This document shows, in pieces, positions 4,219-36,036 of a stretch of 64,000 bases of DNA. The notes under the pieces were generated by a model, which saw nothing but the letters and a program-made list of their open reading frames with translations, ran no database searches and had not been told where the DNA came from. The number at the start of each line of letters is the position of its first letter. The first letter of the stretch is position 1. The stretch covers positions 1,779 through 65,778 of the forward strand of contig JAGLOA010000003.1 of the NCBI GenBank assembly GCA_023139205.1, read 5' to 3'. Source of the stretch: Candidatus Pacearchaeota archaeon. GTDB lineage: Archaea; Nanobdellota; Nanobdellia; Pacearchaeales; GW2011-AR1. The translations under genes and the position numbers were made by a program.

Positions 4219-4379
4219 GCCCCTGTAGTCTAGAGGCCAAGGATGCCACCCTCTCAAATCAGATTAAGAGAAAGAGGTGATTTAGTCTCGGTGAGAGAAA
4301 AAGTCTATGCATCTCAATGCAGCCTTTTCTCTGTATTTGGAGAACGGTGGTGACCCGAGTTCAAATCTCGGCAGGGGCG
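4219..4379 (+). tRNA. intron-containing tRNA, most likely tRNA-Glu (anticodon CTC), with an approximately 88-nt intron after position 37
   Basis: Perfect acceptor GCCCCTG/CAGGGGC and T arm CCGAG-TTCAAAT-CTCGG. Anticodon stem CCACC(4246-4250) pairs with GGTGG(4346-4350) only after removing about 4257-4344; anticodon loop is CTCTCAA. Confidence 0.7.
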
Positions 4380-5134: not shown

Positions 5135-6197
5135 GAAAATACTTGTATTTAATGTGGGAAGTTCCAGCATAAAATATAGTTTATTTCATAATCTGAAAAG
5201 AATAAGTTCTGGGAACAAAGAAAGATTAAAAACAAAACACGATTATCAAAAAGCAGTAAAAGAAATACTTGAAAAATTCAAACAAGAAAAAATAAATTTA
5301 ATTGCCCACAGAGTAGTTCATGGAGGGGATTTAAATAAGCCCTCCAAAATAAACAGAGAAATAAAAAATAAAATAAAAGAATTTTCTGAATTTGCACCAT
5401 TGCATAATCCAAAACAATTAATGGTCATAGAATTAATTGACGCCGAAGGTGATCCCTCTGGGAAGAAAAATTCCAAAATTCCTCAATACGCTCTTTTTGA
5501 TACAATGTTTTTCTCAGACCTTCCAGAAGTTTCAAAAACTTACGCAATTCCAAAAGCACTTACAAAAAAATTAAACATAAGAAGATATGGCTTTCATGGA
5601 TTTTCTCATCATTATGTTTCAAAATCATTAAAAGGGAAAACAATCACTTGCCACCTTGGTTCTGGATCAAGTATTTCTGCAATAATTAATGGAAAACCAA
5701 TAGACACAAGCATGGGACTAACTCCTTTAGAAGGTTTAATCATGGGAACTCGCTCAGGAAACATAGATCCTGGATTAATTCTTTATTTAGAGAAAAAAGG
5801 ATATAACACAAATGAGATATTAAATAAAAAATCAGGACTAAAAGGAATTTGCGGACACAATGACTTTAGAGATATATTACAAAAAATGAATAAAGATAAA
5901 AATTGTAAACTTGCTTATAACATGTTCATTTATAGAATAGTAAAAATAATTGGTTCATACATTACAGCAATGAATGGTCTAAACAATCTTGTTTTCACAG
6001 CAGCAATAGGGGAAAATGTTCCAAGATTAAGAAAAGACATTTGTAAACAATTAAGCTTCATGAAATTAAAATTAAACAAAAAGAAAAATCAAAAAAACAA
6101 AGAAATAATTTCTTCAATAAACTCAAAAGTAAAAGTTTTTGTTAAAAAAACTAATGAAGAACAAATGATTGTTGAGGAGGTTTTAAAATGCCTTTAA
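5121..6197 (+). CDS. ackA: acetate kinase
   Basis: Motifs VFNVGSSSIKY, HRVVHGG, APLHNP, RRYGFHGFSH, CHLGSGSSI, DTSMG, GTRSGNIDPG, FTAAIGEN. Confidence 0.85.
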   Translation: MKKNKKILVFNVGSSSIKYSLFHNLKRISSGNKERLKTKHDYQKAVKEILEKFKQEKINLIAHRVVHGGDLNKPSKINREIKNKIKEFSEFAPLHNPKQLMVIELIDAEGDPSGKKNSKIPQYALFDTMFFSDLPEVSKTYAIPKALTKKLNIRRYGFHGFSHHYVSKSLKGKTITCHLGSGSSISAIINGKPIDTSMGLTPLEGLIMGTRSGNIDPGLILYLEKKGYNTNEILNKKSGLKGICGHNDFRDILQKMNKDKNCKLAYNMFIYRIVKIIGSYITAMNGLNNLVFTAAIGENVPRLRKDICKQLSFMKLKLNKKKNQKNKEIISSINSKVKVFVKKTNEEQMIVEEVLKCL

Positions 6198-10794: not shown

Positions 10795-11028
10795 ATGGAC
10801 ATGGTAAATTTAGGCGCTAAACAAATTGCTCAAAAAGCAGCAGAATATTTGCAAGAATTAAAGAATGTCTCTGATATTTCTTTGGAGGAAATAGAATTGG
10901 TAGGAGAGGGATATTGGTTGGTCACCTTGAGCTATACTTCTTATAACATATTAGATTCAAAAGAACATTGGAAAGTTTTCAAGATAGATGCTTCTACAGG
11001 GGAAGTTCTCTCTATGAAATCCAAATAA
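10795..11028 (+). CDS. small hypothetical protein, possible antitoxin-like partner
   Basis: 77 aa; its stop lies 1 nt before the next ORF. Confidence 0.3.
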   Translation: MDMVNLGAKQIAQKAAEYLQELKNVSDISLEEIELVGEGYWLVTLSYTSYNILDSKEHWKVFKIDASTGEVLSMKSK

Positions 11029-11029
11029 A

Positions 11030-11566
11030 ATGGGAAAACCATTTACTCTAGATAAACGAATAATTCAAAGATATGCATCAAAAGGTTTAATTTTAGATAC
11101 AAAATTGTTTATCCTTTTTTTAGCTGGAATTTATAATCCCAACTCAATAGGAAAGAATAAACTAACAAAAGAATTTAGCATAGAGGATTGGGAATTAATA
11201 CAAATATTTCTTAAAGCTTCAAATAATAAAATCTTGGTGACTCCCCACATACTCACAGAAAGTTCAAATTTTCTAGAAAGAGATTTAAAAGGAGAATTCC
11301 AAATTTGGTTCAAAAAAATCTCAAAAGAACTAATGAAAATGAAAGAATTTTTGATTGAAAAAAATAAAATATTATCTATCCCAGAAACTCAAAGATTTGG
11401 GATAACAGATATAGGAACAATAATCACCCGTAAAATTTGTGGGGGGCTTATAATAACTAGTGATTCAAACCTAGTGAGAGAATATTCAAAAAAAGGGGTG
11501 CCCATACTAAATTTTAATCATTTAAGAAATATTTACTGGGCAAAGAAAAAAGGGATTTTATCTTAA
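11030..11566 (+). CDS. hypothetical protein, possibly a PIN-like nuclease
   Basis: LILDTKLFILFLAG and TPHILTES resemble the PIN D..T/E pattern; this is weak. Confidence 0.3.
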   Translation: MGKPFTLDKRIIQRYASKGLILDTKLFILFLAGIYNPNSIGKNKLTKEFSIEDWELIQIFLKASNNKILVTPHILTESSNFLERDLKGEFQIWFKKISKELMKMKEFLIEKNKILSIPETQRFGITDIGTIITRKICGGLIITSDSNLVREYSKKGVPILNFNHLRNIYWAKKKGILS

Positions 11567-11705
11567 CTAACACTAAGCTCCAGTATCAGAACCTATTCAT
11601 CCCCATCCAAATCCAGGAGAAGGAGAATCACTTGACAAGCTGTAAACATTAACTCTCTCTTCTTTTTTCATTTTTACCAAACCTAAATCAATAAAAATAA
11701 AAAAC

Positions 11706-12530
11706 TTAATTCAATTCGTCTAAAATTTTTGACAAATCTTCTAATGGTCTATAACCACTTACAAAATACCTACCATTAATCACATTTGCAGGAGTTCCTG
11801 TTGCACCATACTTTTCTGCAACATCTCTGTTCGCACTTAAATCAAGTGCATAGATAGTTATCTCTGGATATTTTTCTTGTGCTTCAACCAAAACCGGATG
11901 GTATTTAGTGCACCATCCACAGCCAGCACCATAAAACGAAATCAAAGTTTTAGGAATTAAATCATAATTTGCAAATTCATTAATTCTCATAGAAGCATCA
12001 TATTCTTCTGATTCTTCAACATCAAAAGATAATATTTTTGATTTAATATCTTCAGGCAATTCATTTTCAAAAACACTCCAATCAACAGATTCTGGTCGTT
12101 GAGTCTGTTGGTCTGATTGAGAAGAATCTTCTTCATTAATTGCTGCTAAAGGAATTAAACTTGAAGTGAAATATTCTCCATCCATTGTAACATAAACTGG
12201 AAAATCTTGTCCTTGAATTGAAAGAGTAACTTTATAAAAACCATTTTCTTCGACCACATTAATTAATTCTGCATTAGCTCCTTGTGCATTTGCAAAATCA
12301 AGAACAGCCTCTCCAGCAACATCTTCTGAAATAACAGAACCAGTTATACCTGAAAAACTTCCAATTACAAAAATAAACGTTATAACTCCTAAAACAATTG
12401 TTGAAAGAATCCACGGATTTTCCCTTAATTTTTTAGTAACAGTATCTTTTTTATCAACAACTTTTTCATTAACACCTTCTGAAATATTTTCATTTTCACT
12501 TTCCATTAAATAAAAATATGAAAAAGTCAT
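11706..12530 (-). CDS. membrane-anchored thioredoxin-fold thiol-disulfide oxidoreductase
   Basis: N-terminal TM helix, CGWC active-site motif, C-terminal GTPANVING thioredoxin fold. Confidence 0.55.
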   Translation of the reverse strand: MTFSYFYLMESENENISEGVNEKVVDKKDTVTKKLRENPWILSTIVLGVITFIFVIGSFSGITGSVISEDVAGEAVLDFANAQGANAELINVVEENGFYKVTLSIQGQDFPVYVTMDGEYFTSSLIPLAAINEEDSSQSDQQTQRPESVDWSVFENELPEDIKSKILSFDVEESEEYDASMRINEFANYDLIPKTLISFYGAGCGWCTKYHPVLVEAQEKYPEITIYALDLSANRDVAEKYGATGTPANVINGRYFVSGYRPLEDLSKILDELN

Positions 12531-12594: not shown

Positions 12595-13905
12595 ATGGCA
12601 TATGATATAATAGTCGGAAGAAATGCATCTGACAAAAAAGAGTTGGGAGACAAAGGTCTTGTTTTTATTGGTAAAGGTTATGTAAAAATGGGGCAATACA
12701 CTTCTCTGAGTAATAAAATTTATATGGACATTGCAAGAAGTCATGTTATTCTTGTCGCAGGGAAAAGAGGTTCTGGAAAATCTTACACCCTCGGAGTTGT
12801 TGCAGAAGAACTCTCTAATCTTCCCAAGGAAACAAGCCAAAATATTGCTTCATTAATTTTTGACACAATGGGAATTTATTGGACAATGAAATTCCAAAAT
12901 GAAAAAGATAAAAAATTATTACAGGATTGGGAACTAAAACCAAAGAATCTTCCTGTAAAAATCTTTGTTCCTTTTGGGCATTATGAAAATTATCTTGAAA
13001 AAGGGATTCCTGCAGATGAACAGTTTGCATTAGATGTAACTGAACTCAATCCTGAAGATTGGATTATTACCTTTGGATTAAAATTAACAAACCCCATAGC
13101 TGTTTTAATTGAAAGAACAATTACTAAACTAAAAAAAACAGGAGAATTCAATCTTCAGGAAATAATTTCAAATTTAGAAGCAGATGAAAAAACTTCAAGA
13201 GAAATAAAAAACGCAGCAGTAGGATTATTCGAAGCAGCAAACACTTGGGGAATTTTCGCAAAAAAACAAAAAGAATCAACCCAGGTAAAAGATTTAATTA
13301 ATGCAGGTTCAACTTCAGTTTTAGATTTAAGTGTCTATAGTTCTATTGGAGCATTTAACGTAAGAGCATTAGCAATAAGCTTAATCTCAAGGAAAATTTT
13401 CAACCAAAGAATGGATGCAAGAAAAAAAGAAGAAATCAAATCCATTTCTAAAAATCTTGAATATTCCTCAATACAAGAAAAAAAAGAAACACCTTTAGTC
13501 TGGATGTTCATTGATGAAGCCCACGAGTTCCTTCCTTTAAATTCCAAAACAATTGCAACAGATGCTCTAGTTCAAATTTTAAGAGAAGGAAGACAGCCAG
13601 GAATTTCTTTGGTTTTAGCAACACAACAGCCAGGACAAATACATAGAGACGTAATGACTCAATCAGATATTGTAATCTCACACAGAGTTACTTCCCAGCC
13701 AGACACAGAAGCATTAAACCAAATTATGCAAAGCTATCTGTTAAATAGTATTCAAAAATACATGGACGAACTTCCAACACTAAAAGGTTCTGCAATAATT
13801 CTCGATGACAATTCAGAAAGAATTTATCCTTTAAGAGTAAAACCAAGATTTACTTGGCACGGGGGAGAAGCACCGACTGCAGTGAAAAGAGAAAAGAAAT
13901 TATAA
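12595..13905 (+). CDS. HerA/FtsK-like ATPase (DUF87 family)
   Basis: Walker A GKRGSGKS, Walker B WMFIDEAHEF, QQPGQ region. Confidence 0.6.
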   Translation: MAYDIIVGRNASDKKELGDKGLVFIGKGYVKMGQYTSLSNKIYMDIARSHVILVAGKRGSGKSYTLGVVAEELSNLPKETSQNIASLIFDTMGIYWTMKFQNEKDKKLLQDWELKPKNLPVKIFVPFGHYENYLEKGIPADEQFALDVTELNPEDWIITFGLKLTNPIAVLIERTITKLKKTGEFNLQEIISNLEADEKTSREIKNAAVGLFEAANTWGIFAKKQKESTQVKDLINAGSTSVLDLSVYSSIGAFNVRALAISLISRKIFNQRMDARKKEEIKSISKNLEYSSIQEKKETPLVWMFIDEAHEFLPLNSKTIATDALVQILREGRQPGISLVLATQQPGQIHRDVMTQSDIVISHRVTSQPDTEALNQIMQSYLLNSIQKYMDELPTLKGSAIILDDNSERIYPLRVKPRFTWHGGEAPTAVKREKKL

Positions 13906-14295: not shown

Positions 14296-15126
14296 CTATA
14301 AAACCTGAAAATCAACCCTTAATCTAATTTTGTAAGGTGCAATTTCACCTGCTGATTTTACATTTAAAATTTTAATTTTCTTTTTGAATTTTTTAGCTTC
14401 TTGTTTTATTTTTTCTACGACTAAATCAATTTTGTCGGTATCACAAAAATCATAATAATAAATTCTTGTATTTTTTTTGCTTAACATAAAAGCTTGTTCA
14501 AGAAAACTATCTCTTAATTGAGGTCTTGGCATTACAATAACATCAAACTTTGCCCCTTGTAAAAATTCTTGAAGAGAATTTTTCGGGGCACACCCTTGGG
14601 TGTCAACACTAGAACCTATTACTCTCTTAATATCTCCAGAAACCAACTCAACTTTATCTTTTAATTTATTTAACTCAATATTTAATTTTGCATATTTGTT
14701 TGCTTCACGATTTAATTCATTTGAAAAAACTCTTTCTGCTTTGGAATTTTTAGCAATAATAATTGAAAAAGGTGCGACACCTGCAAACATCACCAAAACA
14801 TTTTCTCCTTTTTTTATTTTTGAAGCAATTTCTTTTCTCTCATTACTTAATCTAGGAGAAAAATAAGTTGAATCAATATTAAACCTAAAAACACAACCAT
14901 TTTCTTTATACAAAACTTCTTTTGTTTTTTCACCAGCTAAATACTTTGTAGAAATCTTTCTTAATCGACCTTTAATTCTTCCCTGTTTTTCTAAAACAGT
15001 TTTAACTGATTTTTGTTCTTTCAATAATTTTTCAGTAAATCTCTTTTTATCTTTTTGTTTAAACTCTTTAGGAAACCTAACAACTGCTATATTCCCTAAA
15101 ATATCAAAAGCCCGTTGTTTTTTCAT
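14296..15126 (-). CDS. trm5: tRNA (m1G37) methyltransferase, Trm5/Taw2 family
   Basis: FDILGNIAVV..FSPRLSNER pattern with a class I SAM-MTase fold region. Confidence 0.65.
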   Translation of the reverse strand: MKKQRAFDILGNIAVVRFPKEFKQKDKKRFTEKLLKEQKSVKTVLEKQGRIKGRLRKISTKYLAGEKTKEVLYKENGCVFRFNIDSTYFSPRLSNERKEIASKIKKGENVLVMFAGVAPFSIIIAKNSKAERVFSNELNREANKYAKLNIELNKLKDKVELVSGDIKRVIGSSVDTQGCAPKNSLQEFLQGAKFDVIVMPRPQLRDSFLEQAFMLSKKNTRIYYYDFCDTDKIDLVVEKIKQEAKKFKKKIKILNVKSAGEIAPYKIRLRVDFQVL

Positions 15127-15562
15127 AAATCTTTTTAACCTCCTCTAAAAATTCTTCTGAATCTAAAATTGCATTTTCTGCGTCTTCCTTCAAGATATTC
15201 AAATCAAAACCATATAAAATTTCATGTCTATCTTCTCGTAAAATATTAAAAGAATTAATTAAATGTTGAGGGATTTTATCAGAATATTTTTCATTGATAT
15301 AAACATAAGTTGCATAATGACTTTTTTCCTGGATCCCCTCTTTATATAATATGGCTCGTACAGCATGAAACATCGAAGTATAAACAGATAAAACTGAATT
15401 ATTAAAAAATCCAGCACCAAATAATTTCTTCGCTTCCTCCAACTTTGCTTCAGCTATTTTTATACTTGAATTTGCTTTTTCTAAATTAGGAGAAATTTTT
15501 CTCAATATTCTTTTTTTAAAACAATCATTAACATCCATTTTATTCAACAATAGGTTTTTCAC
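15104..15562 (-). CDS. HEPN-domain protein, toxin-like partner of the adjacent MNT
   Basis: REDRHEILYG resembles the HEPN R-x(3-6)-H motif. Overlaps the MNT gene by 23 nt. Confidence 0.6.
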   Translation of the reverse strand: MKNLLLNKMDVNDCFKKRILRKISPNLEKANSSIKIAEAKLEEAKKLFGAGFFNNSVLSVYTSMFHAVRAILYKEGIQEKSHYATYVYINEKYSDKIPQHLINSFNILREDRHEILYGFDLNILKEDAENAILDSEEFLEEVKKIYEKTTGF

Positions 15563-16094
15563 CTACCAAACAAACCCCCTTAGTAATTACTTCCTGATAA
15601 AATGCTTTATTTATTTTTGCTTGTTTTTTCCATTCAAACCAAGAGAAAATATGCGAATTAAGTTCTCTATCAAATTTCTTTTGATACTGAAAAATAATCT
15701 CCCTTATTTTTTTCTTATCTTTTCCAATCACCAATAAATCAATATCACTTTTCTCGTCATCCAACCCTTCTGCAATGCTCCCAAAAATAACAACATAAGA
15801 AACTTTTTTTTCTAATGCTTTGATTATCCCAGAATCTTCTACTTTCTTCAGAGAAAAAATAAGTTTTATATTTCTAAAAACAATTGAATCAAGATTTGCT
15901 TTAAAATATCTTAAATTAGCTTTTCTTTCATCTTTAATCAAATTCTCGTTCAAAAATAAATTCAAAAATCTCTGAGCACTATTCAAACTTATTTTCAATT
16001 TTCTGGAAAATTCTCTCAAATGAATTTCTTCGTAAGGATTTTCAACAAAAAAATTCAACGCTTTAAGTACCAAAAAACTGTATTCTTTTTTCAT
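15540..16094 (-). CDS. minimal nucleotidyltransferase (MNT) with an N-terminal wHTH
   Basis: GSIAEG..SDIDLLV nucleotidyltransferase motif. Confidence 0.7.
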   Translation of the reverse strand: MKKEYSFLVLKALNFFVENPYEEIHLREFSRKLKISLNSAQRFLNLFLNENLIKDERKANLRYFKANLDSIVFRNIKLIFSLKKVEDSGIIKALEKKVSYVVIFGSIAEGLDDEKSDIDLLVIGKDKKKIREIIFQYQKKFDRELNSHIFSWFEWKKQAKINKAFYQEVITKGVCLVGEKPIVE

Positions 16095-18941: not shown

Positions 18942-21398
18942 ATGAAAACAGACTTCATCCCAATAGACTATGGCTATTTTGATTTCCAGGGAAAAAACTA
19001 CGCAAAAATTATAGGAAGAAATCAAGAAGGAAAAAGAGTTTGCATAATTGATTCTTGCCCTGTTTACTTATGGGCGATATTAAAAGATAATCTAAAACAA
19101 GATAAAATAAACAAGCTAATTAAAGAAATAAAAAAAATAAAACTTGATTTAAAGGGGAGAAAAACAAAAGTAGAAAAAGTAGAATTACATGAAAAAAATT
19201 ATTTAGGCAAAAAAGTAAAAGCAATAAAAATTTTTGCAACAAATTACAAAGACTTACATGATATCACCGATAAATTAGGGATGCCTGAAATAGAAAAAAG
19301 AAGAGGATATGATCTAGGATTTATTTCTCATTACATTATAGAGAGAGAAATTACTCCTTTATGTTGGTATGAAATTGAAGGGGAAATGTTAAATAATTCT
19401 CAAGAATTTGGGGGAATAGACATGGCTCTTGATGTTGATTTTTGCATTAAACTTGAAACATCTAAAAAAATAAAAGAGGAGAAAAAATTCACCCCAAAAA
19501 CACTTGCTTATGATATTGAAACAGATGAATTAAAAATAGGTCAGGGAGAAATTCTCATGGTTTCTTTAGTTTCAGAAAATTTCAAAAAGGTTATAACCTG
19601 GAAAAAATCTAAACAAAAACCCTCTTGGGTGGAATACGTTGAAGATGAAGCAGAACTCTTGGAAAAATTTGTTGAATATGTTAGAGAGATATCCCCAGAT
19701 TTTCTTGTAGGATATTTTTCAGATGGATTTGATTTACCCTATCTAAAAGCAAGAGCAGAAAAACACAATGTAAAACTCTCTCTAGGATTAGACGACAGCC
19801 AGCCAAAATTTACAAGAGGAATAAATTTAAAAGGAAAAATAAACGGAATTGTCCATATAGACCTTTTAAAATTCATTAAAACCGCTTACTCTCAATACAT
19901 GCAATCTGAAACACTTTCATTAAATGAAGTTTCAAAAGAATTTTTAGGAGATACAAAAAAAGATTTTAAATTAAAACATTCTTCAAAAATAGAAGAAAAA
20001 GATTGGGAGAAATATTATGAATACAACTTACATGATTCTGTTTTAACATTAAAATTATTTGAAAAAATGTGGCCAGACCTTTTAGAATTTTCAAAAATAA
20101 TGAAAGAACCAATTTTCGAGGTCTCAAGAAATGGTATGTCAAAAAATGTTGAATCTTATATTCTGCACAACCTAGAAAAATTTAATGAAATACCTGAAAA
20201 AAAACCAGGATATCATGAGATTTCTGAAAGAAAACAAAGAGGAAAATATCAAGGAGCTTTTGTTTTTGAACCTACCCCAGGACTTTATGAAAACATTGCA
20301 ATGTTTGACTTTACAAGCAGTTATGGAAGTGTTATTGTAACTTATAATTTATCTAAATCAACATTTTTAGAAAAAGAAAAAGAAAATTCTTATAACATAG
20401 AAACAGAAGGTAAAAAAATTTATTTCACTAAAAAACAAGGATTCTTCCCTGAAATGTTAAAAGAAATTATAGAAAAAAGAAAAAAATACAAACAAGAATT
20501 AAAACAAAACCCAGATGTAATTAAAAAAGCAAGAAGTAATGCCTTTAAACTTTTAGCAAACGCAGCTTATGGTTATCAGGGTTTTTTCGGTGCAAGATAT
20601 TATTGTGAAGAAGCAGCTGCAGCAACAGCAGCTTTCGCAAGAAAATTAATAAAAGAATCAATAGAAAATATAAACAAAGAAGGATATAAAGTTATATACA
20701 GCGACACTGATTCAATAGCATTTCTTCAAAACAAGAAAACAGAATCACAGGTTTTAAAATTCTTAAAAAAATTAAATTCAGAACTTCCCGGAATAATGGA
20801 GCTTGAATTAGAAGGATTTTTCAAAAGAGGTTTATGGGTTACAACAAGAGCCGGAACATCAGGAGCAAAAAAGAAATACGCACTTTTAGGAAAAGATGAT
20901 AAAATAAAAATAAGGGGATTTGAAACAGTCAGAAGAGACTGGTGTGGATTGGCTAGACAAACACAAAACAGAGTAATAAGACAAATTTTGAAAGACGGAA
21001 ATGAAAAAAAAGCTTTAGAAAATGTTAAAGAAGTAATTAAAAAAATAAAGCAAAGAAAAATAGACAAAGAAGATTTAATTATAAAAACCCAGCTTAAAAA
21101 ACCAATTTCAGAATATAAAGCAATTTCTCCCCATGTAATTGCTGCAAGAAAAATGAAAGAAAAAGAAATTCCTGTAAGCCAGGGAAATTTAATTGAATAT
21201 TATATTGCAGAAACAAAAGATAAAAAGAAATTAGTTAGAGATAAAGTAAAACTCCCTAATGAAAAAGGGGAATACAACATAGATTATTATTTAAACAAAC
21301 AAATTCTTTCAGCAGTAGAAAATATTTTTCAGGTTTTTAATTTAAATATAAAAGAAATAATAGAAGGAAAAAAACAAATGACTTTAGGAGATTTTTGA
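18942..21398 (+). CDS. polB: DNA polymerase B
   Basis: Exo I YDIETD, motif B KLLANAAYGYQGF, motif C YSDTDS, C-terminal QMTLGDF PIP-like end. Confidence 0.9.
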   Translation: MKTDFIPIDYGYFDFQGKNYAKIIGRNQEGKRVCIIDSCPVYLWAILKDNLKQDKINKLIKEIKKIKLDLKGRKTKVEKVELHEKNYLGKKVKAIKIFATNYKDLHDITDKLGMPEIEKRRGYDLGFISHYIIEREITPLCWYEIEGEMLNNSQEFGGIDMALDVDFCIKLETSKKIKEEKKFTPKTLAYDIETDELKIGQGEILMVSLVSENFKKVITWKKSKQKPSWVEYVEDEAELLEKFVEYVREISPDFLVGYFSDGFDLPYLKARAEKHNVKLSLGLDDSQPKFTRGINLKGKINGIVHIDLLKFIKTAYSQYMQSETLSLNEVSKEFLGDTKKDFKLKHSSKIEEKDWEKYYEYNLHDSVLTLKLFEKMWPDLLEFSKIMKEPIFEVSRNGMSKNVESYILHNLEKFNEIPEKKPGYHEISERKQRGKYQGAFVFEPTPGLYENIAMFDFTSSYGSVIVTYNLSKSTFLEKEKENSYNIETEGKKIYFTKKQGFFPEMLKEIIEKRKKYKQELKQNPDVIKKARSNAFKLLANAAYGYQGFFGARYYCEEAAAATAAFARKLIKESIENINKEGYKVIYSDTDSIAFLQNKKTESQVLKFLKKLNSELPGIMELELEGFFKRGLWVTTRAGTSGAKKKYALLGKDDKIKIRGFETVRRDWCGLARQTQNRVIRQILKDGNEKKALENVKEVIKKIKQRKIDKEDLIIKTQLKKPISEYKAISPHVIAARKMKEKEIPVSQGNLIEYYIAETKDKKKLVRDKVKLPNEKGEYNIDYYLNKQILSAVENIFQVFNLNIKEIIEGKKQMTLGDF

Positions 21399-21407
21399 AA
21401 TTTAACT

Positions 21408-21797
21408 TTGGAATTTAATATTAACTTTAAAGTAGTAAAGAAACAAAAGATTTATAAAGAGGAGATTAATTCTATTTTTAAAGAAATTAAAATGAATAAA
21501 AAATATAAAATTGAGTATGACAAACTAAAGAATTGTGGCTCTGGTGCACTTGTTAGAAAGAAAATTTCAGGGGATACTTCCATGGGAAAATATTTAGGAA
21601 TAGTAATTAAAATAGACAAAGAAAATGTTTTAAAAGAATCATATTTTAAAAAAAATAAAGAACTTTCTCCAGAACAAGTAAAAGAAATTTGTTTAGATGC
21701 ATTTAAAACCCATTATAAATGGCTAACAACAAGTGATAAATATGATGTTCCAAATATACCCGGTACTCTTGAATCTTTTATCACTAAAGTAGGATAA
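21408..21797 (+). CDS. hypothetical protein on a small insert bracketed by duplicated polB 3'-end repeats
   Basis: 129-aa ORF that lies between the 21-bp direct repeats at 21376-21396 and 21905-21925. Confidence 0.4.
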   Translation: MEFNINFKVVKKQKIYKEEINSIFKEIKMNKKYKIEYDKLKNCGSGALVRKKISGDTSMGKYLGIVIKIDKENVLKESYFKKNKELSPEQVKEICLDAFKTHYKWLTTSDKYDVPNIPGTLESFITKVG

Positions 21798-21927
21798 AGA
21801 TAAATCTTTTAAGACGCCCAATTTCTTTTTTATTAATTCTCGAATTTTAGTTTAACTATATTTTTGCTCTCTCACTTATTGAACATATCAAATTCTTATA
21901 AAAAAAATGACTTTAGGAGATTTTTAG

Positions 21928-22242
21928 TTATTTAGCAAGAAATTGTAATATGTGAATAGTCATTATTCCGCAACCAATAGCAATTCTTATACTTCTTGTA
22001 AGTTGTTTTTTAATTCCCATATTTTTATGCTCACTTATTCTATAAACTCCTTCTATTATTAAAAAAATTGCAATAGAAAAAGCAAGTAAATCCATAGTTA
22101 TAGGGTCTAAATAACTACAACCACTATTAACCGATTCTTGACCAATCAATTGAACACTCATAACAATAATTATTACAAGTAAACATAAAATTCCAGTAAA
22201 AATTTTTGTTTTAGTAAAACTTGTCATCCTCTTTTTCTTCAT
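21928..22242 (-). CDS. small membrane protein (hypothetical)
   Basis: 104 aa with three hydrophobic helices. Confidence 0.3.
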   Translation of the reverse strand: MKKKRMTSFTKTKIFTGILCLLVIIIVMSVQLIGQESVNSGCSYLDPITMDLLAFSIAIFLIIEGVYRISEHKNMGIKKQLTRSIRIAIGCGIMTIHILQFLAK

Positions 22243-22275: not shown

Positions 22276-23169
22276 TTGATAAAAGAAAATATGAATAAAG
22301 AAAAAATAATCAAAGCAGGGAAAATAGCATCAGAAGTTAAAGAATATGCAAAATCAATTATAAAAAAAGATATGCCTCTTTTAGAAATAGCTGAAAAAAT
22401 AGAAGCTAAAATAATTGAATTAGGCGGAAAACCAGCTTTTCCAACAAATCTTTCAATTAATGAAATTGCTGCACATTTTACTCCGTCTTACAATGATGAA
22501 ACTCTTGCTTCAGGACTTTTAAAAATAGATTTGGGAGTTCATGTTGATGGTTGGCTTTCAGATACTGCATTTTCTTTAGACTTAGAAAATAATCAAGAAA
22601 ATCAAAAACTTATAGAAGCATCTGAAAAAGCTTTAGAAAATGCAATAAAAATTTCTAAAAAAAATATTTCCACAAGTGAAGTAGGAAAAACAATCCAAGA
22701 AACAATTGAATCTTATGAATTTGCTCCAATAATTAATCTTTCTGGACATTCAATGGAAGAATATGAATTACATTCTGGAATAACAATTCCAAATATTGAC
22801 GATAAAAAACAAATTTTTCTTCAGGAAGGACTTTATGCAATAGAACCTTTTGCAACATTTGGAAACGGGAAAGTTCATGATGGAAAACCTTCTGGAATTT
22901 ATATGATTATAGATACAAAAAATCCAAGAAGCCAAATTGCAAGAGAAGTTTTAGATTTTGTTTCAGAAGAATATCAAACACTTCCTTTTTGTTCAAGATG
23001 GATTATAAAAAAATTAGGAACAAAAGCATTATTTGGATTAAAACAATTAGAAAACAATGGAAACTTACATCACTTCCCACAACTCATAGAAACATCACAC
23101 TCAAAAGTTGCCCAAACAGAAAACACAATTTTAATTGAAAAAGATAATGCGATTGTGACTACAGAATAA
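22276..23169 (+). CDS. map: methionine aminopeptidase, type 2
   Basis: Pita-bread fold motifs including the DLGVHVDGWLSDTAFS metal ligands. Confidence 0.85.
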   Translation: MIKENMNKEKIIKAGKIASEVKEYAKSIIKKDMPLLEIAEKIEAKIIELGGKPAFPTNLSINEIAAHFTPSYNDETLASGLLKIDLGVHVDGWLSDTAFSLDLENNQENQKLIEASEKALENAIKISKKNISTSEVGKTIQETIESYEFAPIINLSGHSMEEYELHSGITIPNIDDKKQIFLQEGLYAIEPFATFGNGKVHDGKPSGIYMIIDTKNPRSQIAREVLDFVSEEYQTLPFCSRWIIKKLGTKALFGLKQLENNGNLHHFPQLIETSHSKVAQTENTILIEKDNAIVTTE

Positions 23170-23170
23170 A

Positions 23171-24242
23171 TTATTTTTTACTCACTTTTATTTTTCTAAT
23201 ATCTTCAAAAGAACTTAAGAAATTCTCTCCTGCTTTTTTATTAGAAGCCTGGAATTTTAGATTTAATCCAGATTTTGTGTGCAAATCAATTTCTGAATAT
23301 AAAACAACAGGAATCTGATAATTATTGTTAAACCTTTTATCAGGACCTCCACTTTTATTCATATATTTCCAATTATGTCCAACTACTTCTGTATCTTTTG
23401 GAACTCCTTGGTCTTCAATAAATTTTGTTATAAGGGTATTAATCTGTAATTCAGAATAAAGAGCTATACCTACTTTTTTTCCTTGATATATTAAAATCCT
23501 ATCGGGAAAGAAATAATATTGTTTATTATCAATTTTAAAACCATAAGGAATTATATTTGAATCAAAAAAAGGTGGCAATTCTTGGAGAATCTGAAATGAT
23601 TTTCTATTAACCAAATTTGAAGCTCCTGAATTTCTTTTCCAATCATCAGTTAATTGTTGGGTTTCAATTCTCCAAATTTTATCTGTTTTTTTAAATTCTT
23701 CAAATCCATCGTTAATCTTATCAAATGGACTTTTGATTTCTTTATCCAATTCATAAACAATGGTTACTGTTTTTCTTTCCACATCTTTTTTAAATAAATA
23801 AGAGTAGGAAGCGATTGATAGAAGGATCATTATAAAAGTTAACCATCCAGGAGAACCTGCTCCTAAAGCAATAACAAAAATAATTATAGAAGATATTAGG
23901 GAAATGGTGCTATATTTTACTAAAGAATTTTTTTTCAGTAATTTCTGTAAGCAAATTATCTGGTGATGAATTTTGAAAATTCTTTATGTCCGCACTTTCA
24001 ATACGATTTTTTTCAATCTCCTGTTCTGGGATTTCATATTTTGTCTTTTGTTTATAAGACTCAGAAAAACCACCGATTTTTTTTCTGTAATAAAATCCTT
24101 GACGACCTAAATGGATAAAGGTTCCATTTGGTCCAACAGATAATCTTGCACCTTTAATTCCTGTTGAAATCCCAATACCCCTTGTTGAAAAATTGAGTGC
24201 AAAAGGTCCAAATGATTTCCTTCTCCTAATGAAAAAACCCAT
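23171..24242 (-). pseudogene. DUF4236 family protein split by a frameshift at an A8 run; the two ORFs are 23910-24242 (N-terminal domain) and 23171-23830 (TM plus C-terminal domain)
   Basis: N-terminal MGFFIRRRKSFGPFALNFSTRGIGIS matches the DUF4236 signature. The downstream frame stays open upstream of its ATG and encodes a TM helix. The frames differ by 1 nt at the T8/A8 run 23929-23936. Confidence 0.5.
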
Positions 24243-31658: not shown

Positions 31659-31910
31659 AAAAACACCCAGAGCCACCCCCCTTCCCAACCTTTTCAAATT
31701 CCTAGCAAGAATTGCTCTTTGCTCAATTTTTCTAGTCACCAAAATTCTCTTCTTTCCTTTTGAAGTTGGATTTTTTATTGTCTGCCCAGCTTTTGCATTT
31801 ATAATCACATCAAGAAGTCTTAAAGGAATTTTCTCTTCTTTAGGAATTTCCAAATCATAATGAAGTTTTCCAAGTCTGTGGATTGCTCTTTGAATCCATT
31901 TCTTTACCAT
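31647..31910 (-). CDS. small basic protein (hypothetical; possibly a ribosomal or RNA-binding protein)
   Basis: 87 aa, K/R-rich. Confidence 0.3.
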   Translation of the reverse strand: MVKKWIQRAIHRLGKLHYDLEIPKEEKIPLRLLDVIINAKAGQTIKNPTSKGKKRILVTRKIEQRAILARNLKRLGRGVALGVFLIF

Positions 31911-31939: not shown

Positions 31940-32443
31940 TTATTTTTTTCTGGATGGGGATTGAATTTTTCCCCTAATAGTTTTTATGTTCTTTTGCCAA
32001 TCTTCCTTAGACATAATGTGCTTTGGTTCTTTATTGGAAAGAACATCCAAAGGAGAATACTTTTCATTCTCAGCTCTTAAAAAAAAGTGAAAGTGAATAT
32101 GGGGCATATGTTGGTTTGCTGATTCACCATTATTATTAATAAGATTAAACCCATCAAATTCTCCGTTGTCAATAAATTCCATTGATATTTTTTTTATCAT
32201 ATCTCTAATCTCTAGAACTTCTTCATCATTAAGATCTCCTATAAAATCAACATGACGATTAGTTATAATCATGAGGTGTCCAAAACTTAGTGGACTACGT
32301 GGGTAAATCATTAAAGCATACTTACCCTTAAGAATAAGTTGCTGATCTAATTCTTCTTTTTCACAAAACGAACATTTTCTATTTTCCATATTTTCTCCGG
32401 ATAATTTCCAAAATGAATTTGGAACCACGTTCCCCTTTGTCAT
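31940..32443 (-). CDS. HIT-family hydrolase
   Basis: Histidine triad HMPHIHFHF. Confidence 0.8.
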   Translation of the reverse strand: MTKGNVVPNSFWKLSGENMENRKCSFCEKEELDQQLILKGKYALMIYPRSPLSFGHLMIITNRHVDFIGDLNDEEVLEIRDMIKKISMEFIDNGEFDGFNLINNNGESANQHMPHIHFHFFLRAENEKYSPLDVLSNKEPKHIMSKEDWQKNIKTIRGKIQSPSRKK

Positions 32444-32563
32444 TAATATAATAATCTTCTCCAGATAATTTTCTAATACACCAACCTTTTCAAATTCCTA
32501 ACAATTTTACGCAATGCTAACTACTATAAAACCAGTCTTATTCAGGGCGATGATAAATTAGAA

Positions 32564-33033: not shown

Positions 33034-33645
33034 ATGAAAAAGAAATCAAAAATTTTAGCAATTGGAGATCTTCACGGAGACACAGGTCTGGTAAAAAAAT
33101 TAGCTAAAAAAGCAAAAGATGAAAATGTGGATTTAGTCATATTAACAGGGGACCTGACATTCGCAGAACAATCTACAAAAAATCTAATTGGTCCGTTTAT
33201 AAAAGAAAAAAAACAAGTTCTGTTAATTCCAGGAAACCATGAATCTGTAGCAACAATAGATTTTCTAGCAGAAATGTATCCAAACACAAAAAACATTCAT
33301 GGATATTCTTTCAAAAAAGGAGGCATAGGAATTTTCGGGGCAGGAGGAGCAAACATGGGGATAAACACTGTGAGAGATTCAGAAATTTTTGATTTATTAA
33401 AAAAAGGTCATGAAAAAATTAAAGATTTAAAGAAAAAAATAATGGTAACCCACATGCATCCTAAAGGAAGTAAAGCAGAATTCTCAGGATTTGAAGGAAG
33501 CAGAGCAATAAAAAAAGCAATAAAAGAATTTCACCCAGACATTGCAATTTGCTCGCACATTCACGAAGCTTCAGGAATAGAAGAACAAATGGGGAAAACA
33601 AAAGTAATTAATGTCAGCAGAAAAGAAAAGATTTTTGAGATCTAA
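33034..33645 (+). CDS. metallophosphoesterase (calcineurin-like)
   Basis: GDLHGD, GDLT, GNHE, HMHP motifs. Confidence 0.75.
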   Translation: MKKKSKILAIGDLHGDTGLVKKLAKKAKDENVDLVILTGDLTFAEQSTKNLIGPFIKEKKQVLLIPGNHESVATIDFLAEMYPNTKNIHGYSFKKGGIGIFGAGGANMGINTVRDSEIFDLLKKGHEKIKDLKKKIMVTHMHPKGSKAEFSGFEGSRAIKKAIKEFHPDIAICSHIHEASGIEEQMGKTKVINVSRKEKIFEI

Positions 33646-33711
33646 AATTGGAATAAAAAAAGTACATCAAAAAGGAAGTTCATTTGAAGTATTTCTTCTC
33701 GGGAAAAAGCT

Positions 33712-34107
33712 TTATTCTTCAGAAATTTTTTCTGTTCCACAGTAAATTTCTTCAACATTAAGAATTATTCCTGATTTTGGAGATATTACCAGACTTGATC
33801 TTTTATCTTCAATCCACTCAACAGTATCCTTAAATATCTTATCATCTCTATGAAATTCAGTGGTGCCTTTAATTTGATAAGATTTTTTATTTTCTTTATC
33901 TAATACAACAAAAGAGATTCTAGGATTTTCAAGTAAGTTTTCTAAGGTTTTAGAAAATTTATTATTTGCAATTAAAATTTGTTTATCATTATACACTTTA
34001 AGAAATTTCAGATAGATAATGTTTGGAATACCCTCTTTTGTTGAAGTTGACAAGATATGCAATTCTTGCTTATTAATTATTTCTTGTATGTATTTTGGAA
34101 TTTTCAT
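33712..34107 (-). CDS. PNPOx-like FMN-binding split-barrel protein
   Basis: Pattern of a pyridoxamine-5'-phosphate-oxidase-like fold; this is weak. Confidence 0.4.
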   Translation of the reverse strand: MKIPKYIQEIINKQELHILSTSTKEGIPNIIYLKFLKVYNDKQILIANNKFSKTLENLLENPRISFVVLDKENKKSYQIKGTTEFHRDDKIFKDTVEWIEDKRSSLVISPKSGIILNVEEIYCGTEKISEE

Positions 34108-34289
34108 AATAAAATAAAAGATTAAGTTACTTATTTAAAACTTTTGCTTAAATTAAATTGCTAAAGCCTTTTTCTCGATTTCATATAACAACTTTTAATC
34201 AAACTCTTCATTCAAAACATCTAAATTTTCTGAGATTAATCTAAAAATTTATAAAAGAACCTTAATCTTAATTTAACAAGGTAAATAAC

Positions 34290-34811
34290 ATGAGTCTATT
34301 GAAAAAATTATTCGAAAAGAATCCAAAAATTGATTTCTCCCAATCAATCTTTTTTGTTAGACAATTTAGACAGAAGAATTATGACAGAGAAATTGATGAA
34401 GGAATGTCATCTGGAATGAAAAGGTATGCAACATTGGATGTGACAAAGCTCTCTAAAAAACAAGCTAGACAAGTTATTGGAGAATTAATAGAAGAAGTAC
34501 AAGATTTTAGTTTATGTAAACTTGTTCAATTAGCAGGTTTTACTAAAAAAGATAAACGTTATTTAATCTTAAGTGGAGAATCTCATATATTCTATGAGAA
34601 ATCTACAAAGGATGTAATTTTAAACAGGATGAAAAGTACTACAAAAGAATTACCAGTTGAATATCTAAAAGCACATGTAACGCCACTCATTCAAGGAGAA
34701 TTGTATAAACCAACTAATTTAGGTCCATACGGAAGTACTGGAAATCCTTGTTTAGGAATTTCACAACATCCTGATGCACAAAAACTAAGAGAAAAAGGGA
34801 TAATAAAATAA
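34290..34811 (+). CDS. hypothetical protein on the repeat-flanked insert
   Basis: 173-aa ORF. Confidence 0.35.
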   Translation: MSLLKKLFEKNPKIDFSQSIFFVRQFRQKNYDREIDEGMSSGMKRYATLDVTKLSKKQARQVIGELIEEVQDFSLCKLVQLAGFTKKDKRYLILSGESHIFYEKSTKDVILNRMKSTTKELPVEYLKAHVTPLIQGELYKPTNLGPYGSTGNPCLGISQHPDAQKLREKGIIK

Positions 34812-35158
34812 TTTACACCAGTCCATTATATTTTTCTTCTATTTATCTTCATTTTAACAAAACCCCAATTCTAAATCAGGCATAATAAATTTTATCAAAT
34901 TTAGTCCAGAAAATAATTAATGTCAGCAGAAAAGAAAAGATTTTTGAGATCTAATACAAAAATTTTGGATTCATAATACCCTTAGCTTTTATATTAAACT
35001 TTTTTATCAACTCTTGACTAACCCCTTTCTTAGAAAGGTACTTTGATATTTTCTCAAGAGAATTCACTTCTTCTCTAATCGGTCCACTTCCTTTACCTGA
35101 AGTAAATCTAACTTCCAAAAAAGTTGAATTTCTTAGGAGATAATTAAACACACAAAAA

Positions 35159-35872
35159 CTATTTTGATTTAGGTCCAATTTCTTCTAATCTTTTTTTATT
35201 CTTAATATATCTCAATGCAATTTTTTCAAGACCTTTTTCAGAATGAATGTCTTTTATTCCATCAAATAATAATTTTGCCCCTTCTAAAACAGGATACAAA
35301 TTTGGGTTATTTTTTACATAATTTGGGATTACTTTTTGAGGAGATATTTCTGTATCTTGTATTAATTGATGTATTCTTTGAATAAAAAAGCCCATCTGAC
35401 TTTCCCTTTCTTCAGGAGTTTTTGAAGGCATATAATGTGAGATAAATTCATGAGATTGATATGCTGGGAAAAAATGCATCCCTCCAAAATTATCATTTGG
35501 TGCACCATAAGGGCTTCTAATATCTGTTCTTAACCCAATAACAAATTTTCCCATTAATTTTGCGTAAGAACTTTCAACAACAACACCTTCATCAAGAGGT
35601 TCATCAAAATTCGCTAATACAACATCACTTTTCGGGATAAAAACCCCCATGTCAAGAAAATAAATTACATTTTGAACTGCAGAACTAATTTGGTCTTGCT
35701 GAAGCTTCCCAGAAAGGGCATTTGTTAAATTTCCAAATTCAAATCCATCTCTTTGCGGGAAATTTGTTTTATAACCAAATCTTTCTAAACCTTCAACTAA
35801 TTGAGAATTAAAATGAGTCTCTCTCCCATTGAATAATGCTGCTGCAGGATAAATTATTATTCTGTCTTTCAT
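35159..35872 (-). CDS. nucleoside 2-deoxyribosyltransferase-like protein
   Basis: DEGVVVESSYAKLMGKFVIG resembles the NDT/YtoQ active-site region. Confidence 0.5.
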   Translation of the reverse strand: MKDRIIIYPAAALFNGRETHFNSQLVEGLERFGYKTNFPQRDGFEFGNLTNALSGKLQQDQISSAVQNVIYFLDMGVFIPKSDVVLANFDEPLDEGVVVESSYAKLMGKFVIGLRTDIRSPYGAPNDNFGGMHFFPAYQSHEFISHYMPSKTPEERESQMGFFIQRIHQLIQDTEISPQKVIPNYVKNNPNLYPVLEGAKLLFDGIKDIHSEKGLEKIALRYIKNKKRLEEIGPKSK

Positions 35873-36036
35873 TTTATTCAGAAAATTATGTTTTATTATA
35901 AATTTACTTGTGTTTGTGTGCTATAATTTTGGAGAAGCAAAAAAATTAATTTTTTATTTAATTTAACAACTTTTAATCAAACTTCTTTCTTAAACTATTC
36001 AAAAAATTATAAAAACCCTTCTTCTTCTCAATAATC

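What the first reader, a model, noticed from the sequence alone, without database searches (positions are those of the whole stretch)
21376..21925. polB 3' end (PIP-box codons MTLGDF-stop) duplicated 529 bp downstream, bracketing a 129-aa ORF
**Seen in the sequence:**
- aaatgactttaggagattttt occurs at 21376-21396 (the end of polB, ending in TGA).
- It occurs again at 21905-21925, there followed by TAG.
- The segment between the copies encodes one hypothetical protein (21408-21797).
- The architecture matches the 41-bp case at 33605/34914: a gene 3' end duplicated on both sides of small cargo.

**Inference:**
- Two independent events of the same mechanism suggest an active or formerly active system.
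- It would insert small cassettes at gene 3' termini while preserving the host gene end; here that end is the PCNA-binding tail of the replicative polymerase.
Basis: seen in the sequence. Interest (0 to 1): 0.6.

Follow-up and report, generated by a model that had tools for sequence, protein, structure and literature searches.

The report
Insertion scar at polB gene end
The repeated 21 bases are the scar of a small foreign gene that slipped in between the DNA polymerase gene and its tightly packed neighbour in a tiny archaeon, and similar scars at other gene ends suggest these streamlined genomes gain genes this way without a dedicated insertion enzyme.

Summary
AAATGACTTTAGGAGATTTTT occurs exactly twice (21376-21396 and 21905-21925), far beyond chance. 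The first copy is the end of polB. The second is non-coding and abuts the stop codon of a convergent membrane-protein gene.

The organism is a Pacearchaeota (DPANN) archaeon. In about 130 related loci the order FEN1, polB, MetAP is conserved, but the polB-MetAP gap varies from 57 bp to 5 kb. In one relative (L071) polB abuts the membrane-protein gene directly. The window aligns to it without gaps once the 529 bp are removed. So this is an insertion of an orphan gene (101-129 aa, no homologue anywhere).

The same architecture recurs: the 45-nt case in this window, and independent events in relatives, three of them at polB. Gene 3' ends carry a downstream repeat in 13 of 1133 cases, against 0-2 of about 1150 in controls. 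The cargoes are toxin-antitoxin pairs, small enzymes and orphans. No integrase, inverted ends or shared repeat core was found. In two events the repeat is followed by a different but homologous gene tail.

Best reading: homology-anchored, integrase-free recombination that displaces the old gene end. No dedicated cassette system is shown. The insert is fixed in all seven or more samples.

The parts
18942..21398 (+). Family B DNA polymerase gene (818 aa), ending in the conserved C-terminal motif KKQMTLGDF and stop TGA
   Evidence: ORF. Pfam DNA_pol_B_exo1/exo2/DNA_pol_B on the identical product. Tail conserved in about 130 orthologues.
21376..21396 (+). Repeat copy 1: the last 21 nt of polB up to the T of the stop codon. 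Extends to 21371 with one mismatch.
21397..21904 (+). Inserted segment (508 nt between the repeats; 529 nt with one repeat copy). About 24% GC. No similarity to polB and no terminal inverted repeats.
   Evidence: Absent in the L071 arrangement.
21408..21797 (+). Cargo ORF, 129 aa from TTG (101 aa from the ATG at 21492). It is an orphan gene. Its reading frame is continuous with polB and separated from it only by the TGA.
   Evidence: self-hit only among 5.8 and 1.84 billion proteins. No Pfam or PHROG hit. Frame shown.
21451..21458 (+). TTTATAAA, a TATA-box-like hexamer-plus 34 nt upstream of the ATG at 21492. Inferred to be the cargo gene's own archaeal promoter.
   Evidence: Read. This is inference from general knowledge of archaeal promoters and was not tested.
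21905..21927 (+). Repeat copy 2 plus TAG: the displaced, non-coding polB end. An A8 run (21900-21907) precedes it, which reads as T8 on the strand of the neighbouring gene. Inferred to be retained as that gene's terminator.
   Evidence: Only a 14-codon open frame leads into it (read). It occupies the position of the polB end in L071.
21928..22242 (-). Convergent small membrane-protein gene (99-104 aa). Its stop codon directly abuts repeat copy 2.
   Evidence: A 66%-identical homologue abuts the polB stop in L071.
22276..23169 (+). Methionine aminopeptidase gene, the conserved right border of the variable islet
   Evidence: Peptidase_M24. Synteny.
33601..33645 (+). Second event, repeat copy 1: the last 45 nt, stop included, of the metallophosphoesterase gene 33034-33645
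33646..34909 (.). Second event, cargo: a PNPOx-like gene (33712-34107, minus strand) and a 173-aa hypothetical gene (34290-34811, plus strand)
   Evidence: Relatives have the phosphoesterase gene followed directly by topoisomerase I, or by one unrelated small gene.
34910..34954 (+). Second event, repeat copy 2 (44 of 45 identical). It overlaps the stop of the convergent ORF 34951-35178.

Best explanation
The two 21-nt copies are the scar of one insertion event. In the ancestor, polB ended ...ATGACTTTAGGAGATTTT-stop and this stop directly abutted the stop of a convergent membrane-protein gene. That arrangement still exists in relative L071.

A roughly 0.5-kb piece of foreign DNA, carrying one orphan gene with its own TATA-like promoter, entered this zero-spacer junction. 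The incoming DNA carried or restored the last codons of polB. The resident polB end was pushed downstream. It survives as a non-coding remnant, probably tolerated or retained because it holds the neighbour's oligo-T terminator.

I infer that the insertion was made by the cell's general recombination machinery, not by an element-encoded enzyme. Two routes fit. One is one-sided homologous recombination anchored in the conserved polB sequence, with an illegitimate join a few tens of bases upstream of the resident stop codon (homology-facilitated illegitimate recombination). The other, equivalent in outcome, is a single crossover between the chromosome and a circularised fragment carrying the polB end.

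In these very compact genomes convergent genes are often 1-2 nt apart. Only insertions that duplicate the shared gene end leave both neighbours intact, so such scars accumulate at gene termini in variable islets between core genes.

Shown: the insertion, its recurrence, the lack of recombinase, inverted ends or a common core, and donor-type tails in two events. Inferred: the recombination route and the terminator role.
For: 1. Empty-site arrangement. In L071 the polB stop (7059) abuts the stop of the membrane-protein homologue (7060). The window with 21399-21927 removed aligns to L071 without a gap through the junction, 98 of 130 identical.

2. The polB-MetAP interval is a hypervariable islet. 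It spans 57 bp to about 5 kb and holds 189 protein clusters, mostly singletons. These include toxin-antitoxin modules, GNATs and methyltransferases.

3. Independent events share the architecture:
- window 33601/34910 (45 nt);
- L005/L078, polB end, 44 nt, cargo MNT+HepT;
- L095, polB end plus the next gene's start, cargo a kinase and a small membrane ORF;
- L019, 88 nt at a PUA-domain gene end, cargo PIN+MazE;
- L035, the mirror image at a gene start.

4. Enrichment. 72-nt segments at ORF 3' ends have an isolated exact repeat of at least 17 nt within 5 kb downstream in 13 of 1133 cases. Interior segments give 0-2 of about 1150, and 3' ends searched upstream give 1 of 1184.

5. Incoming DNA carried a homologous gene end. 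In L005 the 44-nt repeat is followed by QDSLKKWF* in copy 1 but QESLFF* in copy 2. In L019 the tails are KEKS* and KEKTN*.

6. The L019 cargo recurs at 74% nucleotide identity in a different context in L037.

7. No recombinase signature. No Pfam or PHROG integrase or transposase hit in any cargo. No terminal inverted repeats. No shared core among repeats of 21-88 nt. No box-II-like motif in the window or the islet proteins.

8. Tight packing. Convergent gene gaps in the window include 1, 2, 2, 2 and 9 nt. A RadB/Rad51-family gene, an Nre gene and a HerA-like gene lie in the window.

9. The same logic has been proposed for orphan 3' ends in Rhs and T6SS loci (PMC5361080).
Against: - No donor locus was found, because the cargo ORF is an orphan. 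The claim that the incoming DNA carried a polB end is therefore shown only for the L005 and L019 events, not for this one.
- Here the two copies are identical and end at the stop codon, so this event alone cannot separate homologous capture from site-specific integration.
- No within-species empty site or circle was seen.
- A test for mosaicism along polB was inconclusive, because the closest relative is only 80% identical.
- The recombinase search covers 64 kb plus the islets, and partly rests on a motif heuristic and a truncated family list.
- Detection required exact repeats of at least 17 nt, which biases the sample towards recent events and closely related donors.
Confidence: 0.6

Rival explanations
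1. The repeats are attL and attR of a miniature, non-autonomous integrative element. A site-specific recombinase encoded elsewhere in the genome (or on a virus or plasmid) recombined an attP that mimics the polB 3' end with the chromosomal polB end, as elements that target tRNA genes or gene 3' ends do.
For: The architecture matches gene-3'-end att sites: an identical core, the host gene restored, and identity ending at the stop codon. Element-supplied alternative tails, as in L005 and L019, are also typical of attP mimics. Three independent events hit the polB end in different species.
Against: No integrase lies in or next to any of the five cargoes, which at 0.5-1.3 kb are too small to encode one. 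The repeats at four different genes share no core and vary from 21 to 88 nt, so several different recombinases would be needed in roughly 1-Mb genomes. No recombinase-like motif was found in the window or in 449 islet proteins. Of more than 130 polB loci, only three lineages show any polB-end repeat within 6-7 kb. No excision polymorphism was seen.
Confidence: 0.2
2. A local two-step origin. The polB-end/neighbour junction was first tandemly duplicated by slippage or unequal exchange, which created a neutral spacer. The 0.5 kb then arose or was inserted inside it. The orphan ORF might even be born de novo from read-through sequence.
For: Exact tandem duplications of gene-end/next-gene-start junctions (77-80-nt units) exist in relatives L004, L026 and L061. 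The cargo ORF is an orphan, and its frame is continuous with polB across a single TGA.
Against: The expected remnant of the first copy's stop codon is not seen to the left of copy 2 (read). The divergent homologous tails in L005 and L019 cannot come from an in-situ duplication, given the near-perfect identity of the adjacent repeat. A 130-codon open frame in 24% GC DNA is unlikely to arise from non-coding sequence; the stop frequency is about 6% per codon.
Confidence: 0.1
3. The repeat is a target-site duplication made by a transposase or casposase-type staggered cut, followed by fill-in.
For: Direct repeats flank an insert. An IS4/IS5-type DDE transposase gene lies in the window at 60734-61930.
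Against: No terminal inverted repeats. Duplication lengths of 21, 32, 44, 45 and 88 nt are far longer and more variable than known duplications from DDE transposases or Cas1. No transposase lies in the cargo. An unrelated insert would not supply a homologous alternative polB tail.
Confidence: 0.05
4. The second copy is the last trace of a decayed polB paralogue or of a tandem duplication of the polB 3' region, or else a misassembly at a 21-mer.
For: 21 nt equals a common assembler k-mer size. A weak 45-nt similarity (73%) exists between 21057 and 21609 (D11).
Against: Local alignment of the cargo against polB is no better than controls at DNA or protein level: 10 of 200 shuffles and 6 of 37 other window segments reach the DNA score, and 115 of 300 shuffles reach the protein score. 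The offset is 552, not 529. The identical structure appears in contigs from at least seven samples and three assembly sources. Companion events have repeats of 41-88 nt.
Confidence: 0.03

Closest known systems
Homology-facilitated illegitimate recombination and 'orphan' 3'-end displacement in Rhs/CDI/T6SS effector loci of bacteria (PMC5361080; PMC3967940; de Vries & Wackernagel 2002 and Prudhomme et al. 2002, as cited there)
   Same: Incoming DNA is anchored by homology to a conserved upstream gene. A new 3' end plus cargo is installed. The resident 3' end is pushed downstream and keeps a short stretch of homology to the main gene. No element-encoded recombinase is involved, and repeated events build small variable arrays.
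   Different: Here the host is a DPANN archaeon. The anchors are housekeeping genes (polB, a phosphoesterase, a PUA-domain gene) rather than polymorphic toxins. The displaced pieces are only 21-88 nt. The cargo is unrelated to the anchor gene. The mechanism is inferred, not demonstrated.
Integrase-mediated integration into gene or tRNA 3' ends (for example SGI1 at trmE, dusA-specific islands, archaeal SSV/pNOB8-type elements; PMC8409611, PMC7253208)
   Same: Direct repeats consist of the target gene's 3' end, and the inserted DNA restores the gene.
   Different: No integrase, no conserved att core across events, kilobase-or-smaller cargo, and no excision polymorphism detected.
Flexible genomic islets or hotspots between conserved core genes (described for many bacteria; variable hotspots in ANME-1 archaea, PMC13385816)
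   Same: A hypervariable gene set between syntenic core genes (polB and MetAP; phosphoesterase and topoisomerase I), rich in toxin-antitoxin modules and orphan genes.
   Different: Hotspot replacement by double crossover in the flanks leaves no duplication. Here a junction scar survives and reveals a one-sided event.
Casposon and transposon target-site duplications
   Same: Direct repeats flank an insert. Some casposons target gene 3' ends.
   Different: Those duplications have a fixed short length, and the elements carry inverted termini and Cas1 or a transposase. None of this is seen here.

Membership tests
Site-specific integrative element (attL/attR) | Integrase gene within or next to the bracketed DNA | tested here: not met
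   Cargo proteins have no integrase hit in Pfam or PHROGs. No box-II-like motif in the window or islet proteins (heuristic).
Site-specific integrative element (attL/attR) | Direct repeats made of the target gene's 3' end, with the gene restored | tested here: met
Site-specific integrative element (attL/attR) | The same core sequence is used by independent insertions of the element family | tested here: not met
   Repeats at polB, the phosphoesterase gene, the PUA-domain gene and others share no core. Even the three polB-end events cover different stretches, of 21, 38 and 44 nt.
Site-specific integrative element (attL/attR) | Occupied and empty sites, or excised circles, within a population | tested here: not met
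   All twelve same-species loci, from at least 7 samples, carry the insert with 100% identity. An empty arrangement is seen only in another species (L071). Raw reads could not be examined.
Transposon or casposon (target-site duplication) | Terminal inverted repeats and an element-encoded transposase or Cas1 | tested here: not met
Transposon or casposon (target-site duplication) | Duplication of a fixed, short length | tested here: not met
   Lengths of 21-26, 32, 38, 44, 45 and 88 nt.
Integron gene cassette | attC-type imperfect inverted repeat at the cassette end, and an IntI integrase with attI | tested here: not met
   Only weak AT-rich inverted matches at the cargo ends. No integrase found.
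Homology-facilitated illegitimate recombination / orphan-end displacement | The scar consists of a displaced copy of the conserved anchor gene's end, downstream of newly acquired DNA | tested here: met
   Recurrent and enriched at 3' ends.
Homology-facilitated illegitimate recombination / orphan-end displacement | The incoming DNA carries its own homologous version of the anchor gene's end | tested here: inconclusive
   Met in the related events L005 (QDSLKKWF* versus QESLFF*) and L019 (KEKS* versus KEKTN*). It cannot be seen in the window event, because the copies are identical up to the stop.
Homology-facilitated illegitimate recombination / orphan-end displacement | Microhomology at the illegitimate junction, and an identifiable donor | tested here: inconclusive
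   An A-run of 4-5 nt lies at the left edge of copy 2, which is uninformative in 28% GC DNA. No donor was found.
C-terminal PCNA-interacting (PIP) motif of archaeal PolB | Qxx[LIM]xx[FYW][FYW] at the extreme C-terminus | tested here: inconclusive
   QMTLGDF* has Q, L and a single terminal aromatic residue. The pattern KKQxxLG[DE]F* (or ...KWF*) is conserved in about 130 orthologues. PCNA binding cannot be tested with these tools.

The most novel reading that the evidence does not exclude
Pacearchaeota might possess a dedicated, so far unrecognised way of loading small gene cassettes at the 3' termini of core genes. This could be a recombinase acting in trans, or a repair pathway specialised for one-sided capture. 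It would regenerate the host gene end each time and could re-use the regenerated site. The tandem arrays of HerA-tail copies in relatives would be its repeated products.
Probability: 0.1. Interest if true: 0.8.

Novelty: new variant of a known kind. Interest (0 to 1): 0.4.

Why it matters
DPANN archaea have tiny, tightly packed genomes and few recognisable mobile elements, yet their gene content varies greatly between relatives. These scars give a concrete, sequence-level picture of how new genes enter: orphan genes, toxin-antitoxin pairs and small enzymes go in at junctions where there is literally no spacer, next to essential replication genes. Entry works by duplicating the shared gene end. 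This apparently uses host recombination only.

If general, it provides a simple marker for dating and counting recent gene gains in uncultured archaea: a gene-end repeat within a few kb downstream. It would also extend a mechanism known from bacterial toxin loci to archaeal housekeeping genes. For polB itself, it shows that the PCNA-binding tail sits at a recombination-prone border and can be swapped between lineages (L005).

Tried and rejected
- **Homologues of the cargo ORF.** A word-indexed search of 5.8 billion proteins, a full HMMER scan of 1.84 billion representatives, Pfam and PHROGs and viral contigs returned only the protein itself.
- **Structure prediction** of the 101-aa form gave pLDDT 42. 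That is too poor for a fold search, so none was run.
- **Decayed polB copy.** Rejected by alignment against shuffles and against other window segments.
- **Terminal inverted repeats or attC-like hairpins.** None convincing.
- **The bacterial promoter and terminator scan** is uninformative for an archaeon.
- **Mosaicism of polB, to detect a donor-derived 3' part.** Identity profiles are patchy for all relatives and no conclusion is possible at 80% identity or less (a first attempt timed out).
- **Within-species empty site or alternative context.** Exact-protein look-ups for polB, the cargo ORF and the membrane protein found only the occupied arrangement. The MetAP look-up found nothing.
- **Context of the 173-aa cargo homologue (L152).** It sits at another site with no flanking repeats.
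- **Rfam and ARAGORN on GC-rich repeat elements in relatives.** No family matched.
- **Full integrase survey of the islets.** Only the 25 most frequent Pfam families of 114 were visible. This was supplemented by a motif heuristic, so absence is not proven.
- **A first version of the enrichment script** timed out and was rewritten.
Full report
**Observation**

The 21-mer AAATGACTTTAGGAGATTTTT occurs exactly twice in the window, at 21376-21396 and 21905-21925. No further match appears even with three mismatches. Chance expectation is 0.03 matches, and none of 100 shuffles gives two. Reading the sequence, the match extends leftwards to 26 nt with one mismatch.

Copy 1 is the end of an 818-aa family B DNA polymerase gene (18942-21398) with tail ...EGKKQMTLGDF and stop TGA. 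Copy 2 is followed by TAG. Only 14 codons are open upstream of it, so it is not the end of a gene.

Between the copies lies one ORF (21408-21797). It is 129 aa from a TTG, or 101 aa from the ATG at 21492 as NCBI annotates it.

**Context**

The window comes from a Pacearchaeota (DPANN) genome of about 28% GC. In 65 species-level genomes and 80 metagenome contigs the order FEN1 (minus strand), polB (plus), then MetAP (plus) is conserved. The distance from the polB stop to MetAP ranges from 57 bp to about 5 kb.

The proteins encoded in that interval fall into 189 clusters, most seen once or twice. Among them are nucleotidyltransferase/HEPN and PIN/MazE toxin-antitoxin pairs, GNAT acetyltransferases and methyltransferases. 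The polB-MetAP interval is therefore a hypervariable islet between core genes. The polB tail KKQxxLG(D/E)F* (or ...KWF*) is conserved in all orthologues. This fits a C-terminal PCNA-interacting motif as known for archaeal PolB, though binding was not tested.

**It is an insertion**

Directly after copy 2 comes the stop codon of a convergent 99-104-aa membrane-protein gene (21928-22242). In contig L071 a 66%-identical homologue of that gene abuts the polB stop with no spacer. If 21399-21927 is removed from the window, the sequence aligns to L071 without a gap through the junction, with 98 of 130 positions identical. Copy 2 thus sits exactly where the polB end lies in the uninterrupted arrangement. 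The 529 bp (one repeat plus 508 nt) are extra.

The extra DNA is not a decayed polB copy. Its best local alignment to polB is no better than to shuffled sequence or to other window segments, at DNA or protein level.

It is not an assembly artefact either. Twelve same-species loci, from at least seven samples and three assembly sources, are 100% identical over 21300-22000 wherever they cover it. The same data show no within-species empty site.

**The cargo**

The ORF has no homologue among 5.8 billion clustered proteins, 1.84 billion representatives scanned exhaustively with HMMER, Pfam, PHROGs or viral contigs. A single-sequence structure model was unusable, with pLDDT 42.

A TTTATAAA motif 34 nt upstream of the ATG at 21492 could be its own archaeal promoter. 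This is inference from reading. Oddly, the ORF's frame is continuous with polB, separated only by the TGA. TGA is a normal stop here, used by 13 of 69 genes, so I treat this as unexplained rather than as evidence for read-through.

**Recurrence**

A scan of the window and all fetched loci for isolated direct repeats found more events of the same build.

- **Window.** The phosphoesterase gene end brackets a PNPOx-like gene and a 173-aa gene. Close relatives have the phosphoesterase gene followed directly by topoisomerase I, or by one unrelated small gene.
- **L005/L078.** A 44-nt polB-end repeat brackets an MNT+HepT toxin-antitoxin pair.
- **L095.** A polB-end/next-gene-start repeat brackets a kinase-like gene and a small membrane ORF.
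- **L019.** An 88-nt repeat of a PUA-domain gene end brackets a PIN+MazE pair. That pair recurs at 74% nucleotide identity in another context in L037.
- **L035.** The mirror image: a 32-nt repeat of a gene start brackets two genes.

A controlled count used 123 non-redundant loci (1.22 Mb). Segments of 72 nt at ORF 3' ends have an isolated exact repeat of at least 17 nt within 5 kb downstream in 13 of 1133 cases. Gene-interior segments in either direction give 0-2 of about 1150, and 3' ends searched upstream give 1 of 1184. Some events are counted from both convergent genes. About eleven are unique.

**Mechanism**

None of the cargoes encodes an integrase or transposase. There are no terminal inverted repeats. 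The repeats range from 21 to 88 nt and share no core, even among the three polB-end events. No tyrosine-recombinase box-II-like motif occurs in any ORF of the window or in 449 islet proteins (a heuristic). This argues against a transposon-type duplication and against a single site-specific recombinase.

Two events are especially informative. In L005 the 44-nt repeat is followed by QDSLKKWF* in the functional copy but by QESLFF* in the displaced copy. The displaced copy overlaps the convergent neighbour. In L019 the tails are KEKS* and KEKTN*. So the incoming DNA brought its own homologous version of the gene end.

That is what one-sided homologous capture predicts. [quoted passage not shown] A single crossover with a circularised fragment predicts the same. 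It is also what an attP mimic would look like, so the integrase rival cannot be excluded.

The window carries RadB/Rad51-family, Nre and HerA-like genes. Convergent genes here are often only 1-2 nt apart. In such junctions only insertions that duplicate the shared end leave both genes intact, along with the neighbour's oligo-T terminator (here the T8 run encoded by 21900-21907). This would explain by selection why scars sit at gene termini. The terminator role is my inference.

**Verdict**

The reading as an insertion that preserves the polB tail, repeated elsewhere, is supported. The idea of a dedicated, active cassette-insertion system is not supported by anything found. The insert is fixed in the sampled population.

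I rate it a new variant of a known kind, orphan-end displacement by homology-anchored recombination, here in DPANN housekeeping genes. Interest is moderate.

**Loose ends**

The most intriguing by-product lies outside the window. In three relatives the last 14 codons of a HerA-like gene are repeated two or three times in tandem. Differences between copies fall almost only at third codon positions: 27 of 33 differences, 25 synonymous against 4 non-synonymous codon changes. This implies selection on the peptide in the extra copies. No explanation tried here accounts for it fully.

Noticed in passing
L011 1677-1953; L019 552-874; L035 61-231 (the gene is single-copy in the window at 12595-13905): The last 14 codons of a HerA-like ATPase gene (...WHGGEAPTxxKxEKxL*) are repeated 1-2 extra times in tandem, in units of about 117-152 nt, in three species. 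The copies keep their length and stop. They differ from the main tail almost only at third codon positions (27 of 33 differences; 25 synonymous against 4 non-synonymous codons). The GC-rich spacer between them is 96% identical between units. Possible readings are translated micro-ORFs (for example MRVWARIGEAPTSIAKEKKL*) or displaced orthologous ends. There is no Rfam or tRNA hit.
   Followed up: partly
L004 near 11850-12020 (gene 10841-11944); L026 near 12870-12990; L061 6434-6633: The 3' end of an RsmB-like RNA methyltransferase gene, together with the start of the next gene, is exactly duplicated in tandem (77-80-nt unit, up to 2.5 copies) in three different species.
   Followed up: no
window 34186-34205 and 35964-35983: A 20-nt exact repeat (TAACAACTTTTAATCAAACT) lies in two divergent-promoter regions: upstream of the 173-aa cargo gene and upstream of topoisomerase I. 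It is interleaved with the phosphoesterase-end repeat pair, which suggests more than one recombination event built this islet.
   Followed up: partly
window 21396-21797: The cargo ORF's reading frame is continuous with polB. Only the TGA at 21396-21398 separates them, and the 31 codons before the annotated ATG are open. This could be chance (a few per cent) or a hint of co-translation or read-through. TGA is otherwise a normal stop here.
   Followed up: partly
window 23171-23830 and 23910-24242 (minus strand): Two adjacent ORFs match the C-terminal (219 aa, profile positions 170-382) and N-terminal (110 aa, DUF4236, positions 1-43) parts of one phage-associated family, phrog_17982. This looks like a split or frameshifted gene next to MetAP.
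   Followed up: no
window 4219-4379 (plus strand): Rfam finds a fourth tRNA spanning 161 nt, presumably with a long intron. ARAGORN did not report it.
   Followed up: no
window 60734-61930 (minus strand): An IS4/IS5-type DDE transposase gene (Pfam DDE_Tnp_1, E 4e-20). It is the only recognisable mobile-element enzyme seen in the window.
   Followed up: no
window 15104-16094 (minus strand): A HEPN plus nucleotidyltransferase (MNT) toxin-antitoxin pair sits upstream of the FEN1/polB block. It is the same kind of module as the cargo of the L005 polB-end insertion.
   Followed up: no
L056 6001-9633; L060 6001-9642: polB matches in two pieces (residues 1-589 and 584-815) separated by about 1.16 kb. 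This suggests an intein or other intervening sequence in polB of these two more distant relatives.
   Followed up: no
window 31685-31704 and 32481-32500: A 20-nt exact isolated repeat (CCAACCTTTTCAAATTCCTA) brackets the HIT-family gene 31940-32443. It does not coincide with a gene terminus and its origin is unclear.
   Followed up: no
L004 4183-4220 / 5360-5397; L003 1-55 / 908-962; L051 1390-1421 / 5575-5606: GC-rich 32-55-nt intergenic direct repeats in otherwise AT-rich genomes. One pair flanks the FEN1 gene. There are no Rfam matches. They may be small RNAs or miniature elements.
   Followed up: no
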